Under the pieces are notes generated by a model. The model worked only from the letters and a program-made list of their open reading frames with translations. It searched no databases and was not told the origin of the DNA. A DNA stretch of 64,000 bases from the human T2T-CHM13v2.0 reference genome, Homo sapiens. Of the stretch, positions 44,812 through 58,167 are shown piece after piece. The translations under genes were made by a program, and so were the position numbers. The DNA lies in assembly GCF_009914755.1 (NCBI RefSeq), contig NC_060933.1. One strand, given 5' to 3'. The first letter of the stretch is position 1. Every line of letters starts with the position of its first letter.

Positions 44812-45521
44812 AAATTGGTAAGAAAGGTGAAGACAAGACAACACAGAAGGACACAACAGATTCGGAATCAGAATTAAAACAAGGAAAAAAAGATTCAAAG
44901 AAAGGCAAGGATATAGAGAAAGGAAAAGAAGAAAAGCTAGATGCAAAGAAAGATAGCAAAAAAGGTAAAAAGGATGCAGAGAAGGGCAAAGACTCAGCAA
45001 CAGAATCTGAAGATGAAAAAGGAGGTGCAAAGAAAGATAACAAAAAAGATAAAAAGGATTCAAACAAAGGCAAAGACTCGGCAACAGAATCTGAAGGTGA
45101 AAAAGGAGGTACAGAGAAAGATAGCAAAAAAGGTAAAAAGGATTCAAAGAAGGGCAAGGATTCAGCCATAGAATTACAAGCTGTAAAAGCAGATGAAAAG
45201 AAGGATGAGGATGGAAAAAAAGATGCAAACAAAGGTGATGAATCGAAGGATGCCAAGAAAGATGCAAAGGAGATTAAAAAAGGTAAGAAAGATAAGAAGA
45301 AGCCCAGTAGTACAGACAGTGACTCAAAGGATGATGTCAAGAAAGAGTCTAAGAAGGACGCCACGAAAGATGCCAAGAAAGTTGCCAAGAAAGATACTGA
45401 GAAAGAATCTGCTGATTCAAAGAAGGATGCAAAGAAAAATGCTAAGAAGGATGCAAAGAAGGATGCAAAGAAGAATGCAAAGAAGGATGAAAAGAAGGAT
45501 GCAAAGAAGAAGGGCAAGTAG
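44812..45521 (+). CDS. CYLC2: Cylicin-2 coding part of exon 5: Lys/Asp-rich KKD repeat domain, stop TAG at 45519-45521
   Basis: atccccag|AA ATT GGT AAG AAA ... AAG AAG AAG GGC AAG TAG; open for 710 nt. Exon sum 17+41+122+157+710 = 1047 nt = 348 aa + stop. Absent from the ORF track because this frame has no internal start. Confidence 0.97.
44946..45167 (+). repeat. CYLC2: Coding tandem repeat, 84-nt (28-aa) unit, ~2.6 copies ([32 protein letters not shown])
   Basis: The DSA codons start at 44991, 45075 and 45159, exactly 84 nt apart. Confidence 0.9.
45420..45512 (+). repeat. CYLC2: Coding 12-nt tandem repeat ([24 protein letters not shown])
   Basis: About 7-8 consecutive tetrapeptide units immediately before the stop codon. 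Confidence 0.9.
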
Positions 45522-45858
45522 GCCTTGGATAAGAATTTGAACCGAAAGAATAATTCAAAAGCATATTTGATGAAACAATAGTGGTAGTCTGCAGCTGAAT
45601 TTGTGAGAAAACAAGAGGCCTCAAAGAATTAAATAATTTTTAAAAGGTGGTAAAGAAGGATACAAAGGAGAACTCAGCAGAGATTTATAAAAATATATAA
45701 GAAAGATGTTAAGAAAAATTAAGGGGGGATCCATTGAAAGACTTGAAGAATACATATACTTATATTCGGGGATATGAAGGATTCAATGAATGATCTCTAG
45801 AAAGATTTAAAGAAGAATATTCAGATAAGGATGTTGAAGATAATGACACTAAATCTAT

Positions 45859-45901
<43 letters not shown>

Positions 45902-46203
45902 AATGAAGGCTTAAAGAATCCAAGGAGACAGATGTTGTATCTATAGATTTAAAATAATCTCAAGCTGCATCCACAGATACAAAAAAATATAGGAGCCATG
46001 AAATGAAGTTAAACACCTTGTAGAAAGCCTACTTTCAAGTAAATATAGCATTCCTTTGGCAAAAAGAAAAAAAAAGTAAAAGAAAAGAAAAAAAATGTAT
46101 TACCACCCGATGAGCCTACATCTTTCTTTCTGAAGTTTAAACAACCACAGTCATGTTTATGGTTGTTGGATGTGCCACTTCCAATCCAAAAGAAGCACAC
46201 TTG
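45522..46203 (+). other. CYLC2: 3' UTR portion of CYLC2 exon 5, ending at a consensus splice donor
   Basis: Purine-rich, exon-like composition continues after the stop up to cacTTG|gtaagt (GT at 46204). Confidence 0.75.
45861..45897 (+). repeat. (AC)18 microsatellite in the CYLC2 3' UTR
   Basis: Uninterrupted AC run. Confidence 0.97.
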
Positions 46204-46221
46204 GTAAGTCAGTTTTGTTTT

Positions 46222-46534
46222 GTTTACTTATTTATTTATTTATTTATTTATTGAGATGGAGTCTCTCTCTGTCGCCCAGGCTGGAGGGCAGTGGCGCGAT
46301 CTCGGCTCACTGCAAGCTCCGCCTCCTGGGTTCACGCCCTTCTCCTTCCTCAGCCTCCCAAGTAGCTGGACTACAGGCGCCTGCCACCAAGCCCAGCTGA
46401 ATTTTTTTGTATTTTTAGTAGAGACGGGGTTTCACCGTGTTAGCCAAGATGGTCTCAATCTCCTGACCTCGTGATCCGCCCGTCTCGGCCTCCCAAAGTG
46501 CTGGGATTACAGGCGTGAGCCACCGCGCCCGGCC
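46222..46534 (-). mobile_element. AluY, CpG-rich, TSD agttttgtttt, just downstream of the exon 5 donor
   Basis: AluY diagnostics (gcaagctccgcctcc, gtgttagcc, gacctcgtgatccg); TSD at 46211-46221 and 46535-46545. Confidence 0.95.
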
Positions 46535-46624
46535 AGTTTTGTTTTATTTTAAGCCAGATTGAATTAATTATTGTCTTTTTCATTTTTGAGGGTACATAGT
46601 AGATTTAATAATAATTGAACCAAA

Positions 46625-55250: not shown

Positions 55251-56566
55251 AAATAAATCTCCTTCAGCTAATTTTAACATAAATCACCTTTAAAGTATGT
55301 CTCTTGAGTGTTCCTTGGACTCTCTACTTGATCAGCGCTCTACCTTTCAGAGTAGCTCGTTTTTGTCTATGACTAATATGGCTTTTAGAAAATGTTTTTT
55401 AGAATATTTTGCCTTTCATAAAATGTGTTTCTTACATCTAGTTTTAAACTGTGCCAATATATCATCTAAAATTCTAGTTTCATATCTTGTTTTGTCCCCA
55501 AAATACCAATATCTATTATACTATTCCACTCTAAATACCTCTGTAACCAGATAAGATAGAAAGACAGAAACTAATCTCAACTTCTAATTCCCATTAAGGC
55601 TCAGGTCTGGAAATTATATATATATCTAATTGTATATATATAATATGTAAGTATATATACATACATATGTATGTGTATATGTATCAATTATCTATCTATA
55701 TGGATTTTGATAGATAATTGGTAATTCACAGTATCAATTATATATACAGATTTAGATAGATAATTGATATTATCTATATCTACATATACACATTTATGTC
55801 TCAGATATAAGTATAGACATAGAATTTTTCTATCTGGTATATTAAAAATGAGTTATTTTCTAATGGTTAAGAAACAGACCTGATGGAGCATAATGTATAT
55901 CATATATAGATACCTAATTGGGAACAACTTAAATAAAAGCTGATAAATTATTGGGTAAACAGAGTGGCCTAAATAAGATTCAGAGAAAGCAGCAGTCACT
56001 GGCCACAGAGGTTCAGCACAATGCTCCAGGAAGAAGCTCTGGGACAGCTTTTCTCTCTAGCACATTGCCATGGAAGATCTATGCCTGCTGCTCTTTCTAG
56101 ACAGAAAAATAAGACAGGATTTTAATAAATTATAATTTCAGTAGTTGTCACATGCATATGTGTGTCCACAAGCCATTTATCCCATCAGTGTTCTATTTTC
56201 TGCTATTTACTACTACTAGGGCATTTTATATTCTAGTATAGGATGTTTTGTGAGAGGAGCCACTATTTTTTAATCTCTATCCGTGACCTATTAATTTCAG
56301 GTTGTTGTTGTACCTGGTCATTAATCATTGTTTATAAAAGGAGACAAGAAAGGAAAATTAAAATTTCATATGGATTGATTCAGTTGATTTACAAGGAAAG
56401 ACAACTTCCTCTTAGGAAGAGGTATTTTGTCTTAGGTAAAGTAACTTAATGGCATAACAGATGGCTGAACATGAAAGATGAGGCCCCAGTGCATAGCACA
56501 TATGGAAGTTTACATTAGAAAAAAATAATTCATCTACATAAGAGATAAACTTTTTGTTTTTGAAAG

Positions 56567-56644
56567 GGAAGGAAAATAGCTGGCATTTCTTGCTGGAGAA
56601 AGTTATCACAAGTGGAAAGGTTACCCTAGAAACAAAAGATATAA
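56567..56644 (+). other. CYLC2: Weak candidate internal 3'-UTR exon
   Basis: tttttgtttttgaaag| acceptor. The 3' end is ambiguous: GAT|ataagt at 56640 (one base from GTAAGT) or TAA|gtaaac at 56644. Confidence 0.3.
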
Positions 56645-57374
56645 GTAAACTGAAATTTACCCTTATGTGTAATAGCCATCTAATTTTAGAACAATGATGT
56701 TTAATATGTAATTTAAAGGTTTTTTTTTTTCATGTTGTTTTCATCTGCTGTCCCATACCTGCAATAAAAGTCATTTGAGTAAGTGGCTTTGCTTTGATGA
56801 TACTTAAGGGGAAGAAATGGAGAATTAATTGGGCTAAGCATGATAGTAAAGAGGAGAATGGGATTTCAAAAGGGGATTTAAGGTGGGTGGCATTTGAGAA
56901 GAAAGCTTAAAAATGAAAATTATTAGAATATGTCCTAGTAACACCCAACTTTCCCTAAATTCAAAAAATATTACAAAGTTGGAAAATATTAAAGTTCATC
57001 ATAGTTTAAATTTTCCTATTTAAACAAAGTAAAGGGCATCTGCAGAATGTTGAAAGTTTGAAACTTCATGGACTTATTTATTTCATAAAGGGCTCTCTAA
57101 CTTCTACACAAATTAGAGTTTTAGTTAATTGCTCCTAATTTGGTTTACTGAATAAATTGATCTGAAATAAAGTATGCTTTTCAATTATGTTTAGCAAGTT
57201 TCATTCATCTCTTCAGAAACTTCTGTTTCATTTCCTCCATTTATACAAACCTACATGTTAACATATTCACAATATCTATTTTCCTAAACCCAGGACAAAG
57301 AATATCAATTGGACCCTCTGTAACTTTTCCTAGATATAGTTGGTAACTTTTTCTTAGAATGTATGCATTAGGGG

Positions 57375-57727
57375 TAGACTGGTTTGCTAGGACTGCCATG
57401 ACAACAAACCACAGACGGGGTAGCTTAAATAATAAGCTGTTTTCTCAGTGTTCTGGAAGGCTAAAAGTCCACAATCAAGATATTGGCAGCGTTGATTTCT
57501 TCTCAAGCCTCTCTCCTTGGCCTCTATGTGGCTATGTTTTCCCTTTGTCTTCACATGGTCTTTCCTCTGTGTGGATCTGTGTTCTAATCTCTTGTAAGAC
57601 CCGTCATATTGCATTACGGTCCATCTTAATGACCTCATTTAACCTTTATTACTTCTTTAAAGGCCTTGTGTACCCAGTCACATTCTGTGGTGCTGGAAGT
57701 TAAGACTTCAACATGTAAATTTCAGGG
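57375..57727 (-). mobile_element. MLT1A/B-type MaLR LTR
   Basis: gctaggactgccatgacaacaaaccacagac ... gttctggaagg ... aagacttcaacatgtaaatttcaggggagacaatt. Confidence 0.8.
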
Positions 57728-58003
57728 GAGACAATTTATCCCACAACGAAGGTATATGAGATCAGTTTTTTATTTTTAATCACTCAGAAACCTAAGGTTC
57801 TGAAGTAGTATCTTCAGTTGAGGAATTTGTACTCATTTTTTGGTAGCAACTCTAATTTGTTTAAACAATGAGGAGAACTTTATGACATAATTGAAATCCA
57901 TGTATTTTCAGACCTTCAGCATTTGGTAGATGCCCTTTACTTTACCACTGCTTCCGGGAGAAGCTTAAGCATCTCATTTGACTCTGATTTGATTGTGTTC
58001 CAG

Positions 58004-58167
58004 GACTACCGTGAAGATGGATTGGACATTACACCACACTGGAAAAGTGAAACATCTCATTCAGTTGGTGATCTTCCTGTCATGAAAGTTGCTTGACAGC
58101 TCTAATTACGAATTGAACACATTAAACACCTGGTGAAATTATCAATTAAAAACATCTACTCACCATA
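58004..58167 (+). other. CYLC2: Candidate terminal non-coding exon with poly(A) signals
   Basis: gattgtgttccag| acceptor (alternative tgtattttcag| at 57911), ATTAAA at 58121-58126 and 58145-58150, followed by GU/U-rich gttatttgtgtct. End coordinate estimated. Confidence 0.55.

What the first reader, a model, noticed from the sequence alone, without database searches (positions are those of the whole stretch)
45519..58167. Normal stop codon lies far upstream of 3'-UTR introns: built-in NMD-substrate architecture
Seen: the stop is 682 nt upstream of a consensus donor (46204), with candidate downstream non-coding exons at 51800-51915, ~56567-56644 and 58004-~58167. Established: a stop more than 50-55 nt upstream of an exon junction normally triggers EJC-dependent NMD. 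Inference: a structural spermatid mRNA with this layout must either evade NMD in post-meiotic cells, use decay as a timer or as a safeguard against somatic leak expression, or end early. An ATTAAA at 45628-45633, ~107 nt after the stop, could give an NMD-immune short isoform.
Basis: partly seen in the sequence, partly recalled or inferred. Interest (0 to 1): 0.7.

Follow-up and report, generated by a model that had tools for sequence, protein, structure and literature searches.

The report
Fossil coding tail as CYLC2 3'UTR
The human sperm-head gene CYLC2 has annotated introns well after its stop codon, likely because an ancient early stop cut off the protein's tail and turned old coding DNA and its intron into untranslated sequence; sperm precursor cells probably tolerate this because their decay of such messages is reportedly weak.

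Summary
The layout is real and already catalogued. The CYLC2 stop lies 682 nt before a GT donor, and CYLC2 is in a published list of human genes with distal 3'UTR introns, but not in the mouse list. What appears new is its origin. The last 700 nt of the big coding exon of the paralogue CYLC1 align collinearly with this UTR and end at both donors. That donor matches CYLC1's last coding intron, and three of four marsupial cylicins keep the tail. The 'normal' stop is therefore probably a nonsense change fixed in early placental mammals. This homology beats shuffles and other tiles but is not significant by nhmmer, nor at protein level for the proline-rich tail. Exon 6 is an exonised Alu. The ATTAAA at 45628 is at chance level and lacks a downstream element. 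Mouse knockouts show weak exon-junction NMD in spermatids. Best reading: a tolerated evolutionary leftover, not a decay timer. No RNA data were available, so NMD sensitivity of CYLC2 itself is untested.

The parts
45519..45521 (+). CYLC2 stop codon TAG; probably a nonsense change fixed before the split of the placental lineages sampled
   Evidence: the same K-K-G-K end in 5 of 13 placental database proteins, a K-K-K end in 2, the other 6 partial or ending elsewhere
45522..46203 (+). 3'UTR part of exon 5; likely decayed coding sequence for the lysine/aspartate repeats and proline-rich tail that CYLC1 still encodes
   Evidence: collinear alignment with CYLC1 exon 4, 393 matches in 596 ungapped columns, ending at both donors; controls; weak by nhmmer
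45628..45633 (+).
   Evidence: chance level, purine-rich downstream
45861..45897 (+). (CA)n microsatellite, 18.5 copies, inside the UTR
46061..46095 (+). A-rich run; internal-priming risk in 3'-end data
   Evidence: sequence
46204..46209 (+). Donor of intron 5 (GTAAGT); same position and flanking codon as the donor of CYLC1's last, coding, phase-0 intron
46210..46545 (-). Antisense Alu inserted 6 nt after the donor, with a 12-nt target-site duplication (46210-46221, 46534-46545)
46868..46891 (+). Cluster of three poly(A)-type hexamers in intron 5 with T-rich downstream sequence; a better candidate for an unspliced early end than 45628, untested
51767..51792 (+). 26-nt T tract (Alu poly(A) tail read antisense) that serves as pyrimidine tract of exon 6
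51800..51915 (+). Exon 6, non-coding, carved from an antisense Alu (about 51756-52082)
   Evidence: SRP-RNA matches on the - strand; 10,503 genome candidates, best others 83-85% identical; AG/GT sites
56567..56640 (+). Exon 7, non-coding; annotated end followed by AT, not GT, in this assembly
   Evidence: single genome match
58004..58167 (+). Exon 8, terminal exon with ATTAAA at 58145-58150; homology to CYLC1's last exon suggested by eye but not significant

Best explanation
CYLC2 has annotated introns 682-872 nt after its stop codon, likely because an early stop became fixed in this intron-containing duplicate of the cylicin gene and turned about 230 codons and the last coding intron into 3'UTR; the spliced mRNA probably survives in spermatids because exon-junction-triggered decay is weak there. 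Steps: (1) shown: CYLC1 and CYLC2 share introns 1-3 at the same places; (2) shown, with moderate statistics: the UTR aligns with the end of CYLC1's big coding exon up to the donor; (3) inferred: the tail is ancestral and was lost in CYLC2 before horse, pangolin, rodents and primates diverged; (4) shown: an Alu later supplied exon 6; inferred: the sequence was free to take it up because it no longer coded; (5) inferred from mouse knockouts of other genes: the downstream junctions cost little in spermatids. Decay of stray somatic transcripts would be a by-product, not the reason for the layout.
For: CYLC1 on contig C23 has 5 exons, 651 codons, GT-AG introns at cumulative coding positions 17, 58, 177, 1923 against 17, 58, 180 for CYLC2 introns 1-3, with alignable flanks. 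CYLC1 exon 4 last 700 nt vs the UTR: score 204.5, reached by 0 of 200 shuffles in each of 6 shuffle sets (k=2-4, either sequence) and 0 of 358 other tiles. The non-repetitive last 300 nt: score 76, 1-3 of 300 shuffles, 0 of 808 tiles, while three control queries were at chance. Both alignments run to the last base of both exons. In a 3'-anchored test without the last 3 exon bases, sites outside the UTR reaching the target score were 34 of 6214 (40 nt), 3 of 6209 (80 nt), 0 of 1606 (150 nt), 0 of 1516 (300 nt); the last two used a random quarter of the sites. The repeat part also scores at protein level: 0 of 300 DNA shuffles, 7 of 300 protein shuffles, 3 of 358 tiles. The last codons read A-H-L before the CYLC2 donor and A-P-L before the CYLC1 donor. 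3 of 4 marsupial cylicins end in a tail that hits CYLC1's last exon at E 8.9e-6; 0 of 13 placental CYLC2-type database proteins carry it. [quoted passage not shown] Mouse CYLC2 protein is present from round spermatids on (PMC10684152).
Against: nhmmer with bias correction gives only E 1.5 (45697-45820) and E 6.3 (46147-46192) in the UTR, and nothing there for the last 300 nt. A genome-wide BLAST-type search with the same 700 nt hit the CYLC2 coding repeats but not the UTR. The proline-rich tail is not significant at protein level (24-29 of 300 DNA shuffles, 161-167 of 300 protein shuffles). Marsupial tails did not find the UTR by tblastn or a back-translated profile and were mixed in frameshift-aware alignments. 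A codon-bias test was weak: 18 and 43 of 382 other windows scored as high. Exon 8 vs CYLC1's last exon: 7% of random 141-nt segments score as high. The sequences are A-rich and repetitive, which inflates alignments. NMD evidence is from mouse and from other genes; PMC9723633 also says many downstream-junction transcripts do rise in Smg6-null cells, and PMC4858158 reads this branch as functional in Tdrd6-null spermatids.
Confidence: 0.62

Rival explanations
1. The 3'UTR introns are a selected decay timer (Arc-like): EJC-dependent NMD limits how long or how much CYLC2 is made in spermatids.
For: The 50-55 nt rule is met at three junctions. The intron-5 donor has stayed near consensus although the sequence before it decayed. 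Cylicin dosage matters in mice. Some downstream-junction transcripts rise in Smg6-null germ cells.
Against: Mouse Cylc2 is not among the 3,113 rows of the mouse 3'UTR-intron sheet (may reflect incomplete annotation). One junction is Alu-derived and another has no GT in this assembly. In HCT116 cells bona fide 3'UTR-intron transcripts did not rise as a class on UPF1 knockdown (10.1101/2024.01.10.575007).
Confidence: 0.1
2. The introns are kept by selection as a safeguard: leaked CYLC2 transcripts are destroyed by NMD in somatic and pre-meiotic cells.
For: EJC-dependent NMD is strong in somatic cells (PMC4858225 introduction); the layout would make leaked transcripts candidates.
Against: No data on leak expression were found. 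CYLC1 is equally testis-specific and has no such intron. A by-product explains the same layout.
Confidence: 0.1
3. Most CYLC2 mRNA never carries the downstream junctions: it ends early, more plausibly at the hexamer cluster 46868-46891 in intron 5 than at 45628, and the annotated spliced forms are minor.
For: Three hexamers with 38-50% T downstream. Mouse annotation lists no 3'UTR intron. Exons 6 and 7 look young or weak.
Against: Both Ensembl transcripts in the published table are spliced and share a 164-nt last exon (1054-890 and 969-805). Exon 8 has a normal poly(A) signal and downstream element. AATAAA and ATTAAA occur 191 times on this strand of the window, so a cluster is weak evidence.
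Confidence: 0.13
4. The UTR was never coding; its likeness to CYLC1 comes from A-rich composition and a shared donor consensus.
For: nhmmer and genome BLAST are not significant in the UTR; protein-level tail test negative.
Against: k-mer-preserving shuffles, composition-similar control queries and the anchored test without donor bases all favour positional homology; the genes are paralogues with shared introns.
Confidence: 0.1

Closest known systems
Distal 3'UTR-intron genes (Gangras et al. 2020, PMC7310861; 489 human genes)
   Same: CYLC2 is listed there, with two transcripts and last junctions 890 and 805 nt from the stop.
   Different: The list says nothing on origin; no mouse entry for Cylc2.
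Arc and SRSF-type regulated NMD substrates
   Same: Normal stop followed by spliced 3'UTR introns more than 55 nt away.
   Different: Those have shown NMD sensitivity; none is shown for CYLC2, whose junction set is partly primate-specific and which is expressed where this NMD branch is reported weak.
CYLC1 and marsupial cylicins
   Same: Cylicin_N domain, introns 1-3, lysine/aspartate repeats, and a donor at the matching place at the end of the big exon.
   Different: They translate through to a tail ending in a small last coding exon (shown for CYLC1; exon structure of marsupial genes not seen). CYLC2 stops about 230 codons earlier and has an extra 117-nt intron 4.
Exonised antisense Alu elements (Attig et al. 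2016, PMC5115870)
   Same: Exon 6 uses the Alu T tract and an AG near the Alu end, with a GT donor inside the element.
   Different: It lies wholly in the 3'UTR after an older downstream junction, so it adds little new NMD liability. No CYLC2 name or gene id in 3 supplementary files searched.

Membership tests
Distal 3'UTR-intron transcripts | Annotated stop at least 50 nt before a 3'UTR exon junction | tested here: met
   682, 798, 872 nt; listed in PMC7310861 S3 Table
Distal 3'UTR-intron transcripts | Junction reads in the expressing tissue | not testable with these tools
   No RNA data; annotation only
Regulated EJC-dependent NMD substrates (Arc-like) | Downstream junction beyond 50-55 nt | tested here: met
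Regulated EJC-dependent NMD substrates (Arc-like) | Stabilised on UPF1/UPF2/SMG6 loss | not testable with these tools
   The differential-expression tables of PMC9723633 and one large table of PMC4858225 could not be read; the one Cylc2 row seen is a minor mis-spliced mouse isoform classed as mainly wild-type; no Cylc2 in 4 files of PMC4858158
Regulated EJC-dependent NMD substrates (Arc-like) | 3'UTR intron conserved between human and mouse | tested here: inconclusive
   Absent from the mouse sheet, but mouse annotation may be incomplete; no mouse DNA available
Exonised Alu | Exon lies inside an antisense Alu | tested here: met
Exonised Alu | T tract plus AG acceptor and internal GT donor from the element | tested here: met
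Exonised Alu | Low, hnRNPC-repressed inclusion | not testable with these tools
   No RNA data
3'UTR derived from coding sequence after a fixed premature stop | Paralogue or outgroup still encodes the region | tested here: met
   CYLC1 651 aa; 3 of 4 marsupial proteins carry the terminal motif
3'UTR derived from coding sequence after a fixed premature stop | Collinear DNA similarity of the UTR to that coding region above composition | tested here: met
   Shuffle, tile and anchored tests; not confirmed by nhmmer or genome BLAST
3'UTR derived from coding sequence after a fixed premature stop | Shared intron position at the end of the region | tested here: met
   Local alignments end at the last exon base in both genes
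3'UTR derived from coding sequence after a fixed premature stop | Terminal exon homologous to the paralogue's last coding exon | tested here: inconclusive
   Exon 8: 9 of 1000 shuffles with flanks, but 104-295 of 1000 shuffles and 7% of segments for the interior alone
Proximal poly(A) site (45628) | Hexamer above chance with a U/GU-rich downstream element | tested here: not met
   954 of 1000 shuffles hold a hexamer; 15% T downstream

The most novel reading that the evidence does not exclude
CYLC2 is a nonsense allele that evolution let through: weak exon-junction NMD in spermatids allowed a stop 680 nt before the last intron to become fixed and give a new, tail-less cylicin. If so, spermatid-specific genes as a class would have an NMD-blind route to C-terminal truncation and should be enriched for distal 3'UTR introns preceded by fossil coding sequence, and CYLC2 (with CYLC1 as its matched control) would be a natural reporter for how far this NMD branch is switched off after meiosis.
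Probability: 0.3. Interest if true: 0.6.

Novelty: new member of a known kind. Interest (0 to 1): 0.33.

Why it matters
It gives a simple origin for an odd transcript layout in a male-fertility gene: inherited structure rather than regulation. It also explains why cylicin-2 lacks the proline-rich tail of cylicin-1. Practically, the usual rule that a nonsense variant escapes NMD only in the last exon cannot be applied to CYLC2 in the normal way, since its normal stop already precedes three junctions. The CYLC1/CYLC2 pair offers a test of the open question of how active junction-triggered NMD is in spermatids.

Tried and rejected
Rfam: only Alu/SRP-like and simple-repeat matches, all 55 below gathering score; no cis-regulatory RNA family. 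Search of protein representatives with the translated UTR end: 4 hits, none a cylicin by appearance (one inspected was an unrelated tandem repeat). Search for cylicins longer than 590 aa found none, not even CYLC1, so the database sample is incomplete. Marsupial tails against the window by tblastn and by back-translated profile did not pick the UTR or exon 8. Codon-bias HMM was weak. The N-domain tree (17 rows; P0012 and P0017 left out) could not place CYLC1, a long branch, so the time of duplication is open. The ESM Atlas gave no result. Rejected: ATTAAA 45628 as a poly(A) site; exon 8 as a proven copy of CYLC1's last exon; exons 7 and 8 as repeats (single-copy, with the tool's caveat that this does not show rarity). 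Literature searches for CYLC2 with NMD, polyadenylation, duplication or marsupial listed no paper on the CYLC2 3'UTR; I saw listings only for most, and Hess et al. 1993/1995 were not read.
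Full report
OBSERVATION. The annotated CYLC2 exons give a 348-codon frame ending in TAG at 45519-45521. The next donor (TTG|GTAAGT, 46203/46204) is 682 nt away; the later junctions are 798 and 872 nt away, and the spliced 3'UTR is 1036 nt. Six of seven annotated introns are GT-AG; intron 7 starts with AT in this assembly. The layout is already catalogued: S3 Table of PMC7310861 lists two human CYLC2 transcripts (8 and 7 exons; last junction 890 and 805 nt from the stop), among 489 human genes with distal 3'UTR introns; the search found no Cylc2 row in the mouse sheet of 3,113 rows. 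I had no RNA data, so splicing rests on annotation.

THE PROPOSED EARLY END. The ATTAAA at 45628 is real but ordinary: 954 of 1000 dinucleotide shuffles of the exon-5 UTR contain AATAAA or ATTAAA, and the sequence 20-60 nt after it is 15% T, against 38-50% for the three hexamers at 46868-46891 and the two in exon 8. If an unspliced early end exists, the intron-5 cluster is the better candidate. The annotated end at 58167 has a hexamer 17 nt upstream and no genomic A-run.

WHAT THE UTR IS. Translated, the UTR reads like broken lysine/aspartate-rich coding sequence, and the repeat finder placed two UTR stretches in the same family as the coding repeats. I located the paralogue CYLC1 on contig C23 with the Cylicin_N profile and read it: five exons, 651 codons, introns after coding bases 17, 58, 177 and 1923, against 17, 58 and 180 for CYLC2 introns 1-3, with alignable flanks. 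The duplication therefore kept introns. The last 700 nt of CYLC1 exon 4 align collinearly with 45527-46203 (393 matches, 596 ungapped of 733 columns) and the local alignment ends on the last exon base of both genes. The score, 204.5, was reached by 0 of 200 shuffles in each of six sets and 0 of 358 other tiles; the non-repetitive last 300 nt scored 76 (1-3 of 300 shuffles; 0 of 808 tiles), while three control queries were at chance. The first half of the UTR also resembles CYLC2's own coding repeats, as expected for further repeats. A test anchored at every GT, leaving out the last three exon bases, gave z 3.0-4.3. The last codons read A-H-L in CYLC2 and A-P-L in CYLC1, each ending TTG before GTAAGT.

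RESULTS AGAINST. nhmmer gave E 1.5 and 6.3 in the UTR, and a genome-wide DNA search hit only the coding repeats. At protein level the repeat part is supported (0 of 300, 7 of 300, 3 of 358) but the proline-rich tail is not. Marsupial tails alone did not find the UTR and gave mixed results with frameshifts allowed. Exon 8 resembles CYLC1's last exon by eye but not statistically once splice and poly(A) signals are removed. I put the fossil origin at about 0.85, because the positional prior is strong and the tests that keep composition agree.

DIRECTION AND AGE. Three of four marsupial cylicins end in a motif that matches CYLC1's last exon (E 8.9e-6); the koala entry stops earlier. None of 13 placental CYLC2-type database proteins has it; five end K-K-G-K like human (two rodents, horse, pangolin, mandrill), two fox entries end K-K-K, six are partial or end elsewhere. 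The marsupial N-domain is closer to CYLC2 (56-60%) than to CYLC1 (35-41%), and the tree cannot place the long CYLC1 branch. Under any placement, loss in placental CYLC2 is the simplest account (inference). These are predicted proteins and the sample is incomplete. PMC10994659 (passages) describes the cylicin-1 tail as proline-rich.

LATER ADDITIONS. Exon 6 lies in an antisense Alu: SRP-RNA matches on the minus strand, 10,503 genome candidates with the best at 83-85%, a 26-nt T tract before the acceptor. This is the standard exonisation pattern (PMC5115870, passages); that Alus are primate-specific is established knowledge. A second antisense Alu sits 6 nt after the intron-5 donor with a 12-nt target-site duplication. 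Exon 7 has no GT at its annotated end.

NMD. In Upf2-null mouse spermatocytes and round spermatids PTC transcripts did not rise globally (PMC4858225, passages). In Smg6-null germ cells downstream junctions were not enriched among upregulated transcripts, though many such transcripts did rise (PMC9723633, passages and section 34). A review ties this to UPF3A and UPF2 sequestration (PMC5803779, passages). PMC4858158 (passages) regards the branch as intact in Tdrd6-null spermatids. In HCT116 cells bona fide 3'UTR-intron transcripts were not UPF1-sensitive as a class (10.1101/2024.01.10.575007, section 6). The 1036-nt UTR falls in the 'medium' class (350-1500 nt) of the length-dependent branch. 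Mouse CYLC2 protein appears from round spermatids on (PMC10684152, section 6). The tables that could show Cylc2 itself could not be read, so its sensitivity is untested. PMC12766463 (passages) does not link CYLC2 to NMD.

VERDICT. The architecture is known; the most likely cause is a fixed ancient premature stop, tolerated in a cell type with weak junction-triggered decay, with later Alu decoration. I found no paper stating this origin (the library lacks most subscription papers). It is a tidy single-gene evolutionary finding with a testable wider idea, not a new mechanism. Interest 0.33.

Noticed in passing
window 56640-56646: Annotated exon 7 is followed by ATAAGT; a G at 56641 would be a consensus donor. 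The Ensembl lengths imply a UTR 18 nt longer than here and an 85-nt difference between the two transcripts, against a 74-nt exon 7 here, so a haplotype difference (substitution or small deletion) at this boundary is possible.
   Followed up: partly
window 44708-44794 and 46917-47003: An 87-nt piece of intron 4 is repeated at 90% identity in intron 5, without the acceptor AG; only these two copies were found in the genome.
   Followed up: partly
window 44695-44811: CYLC2 intron 4 (117 nt) has no counterpart in CYLC1, whose exon 4 runs through this position: an intron gain in CYLC2 or loss in CYLC1.
   Followed up: no
window 52884-55250; L011/L012 (C23:82311440-82313430): A 2.4-kb degenerate (TA)n array lies in CYLC2 intron 6 and a 2-kb one in CYLC1's last intron (about 72% alike by BLAST); probably independent low-complexity expansions.
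   Followed up: no
window 57026-57118 and 57850-57943: Inverted repeat, 79% identical over about 94 nt, inside intron 7 and ending 60 nt before the exon-8 acceptor.
   Followed up: no
window 35152-35251; C23:82294676-82294775: The promoter/first-exon region is 81% identical between CYLC1 and CYLC2 and shares a TGATGTCA word, which resembles a CRE-type site (motif likeness recalled).
   Followed up: no
P0013, P0015, P0016: The marsupial cylicins come from contigs of 87-106 Mb, the size range of marsupial X chromosomes as I recall it; this would make the autosomal CYLC2 an intron-keeping copy out of the X.
   Followed up: no
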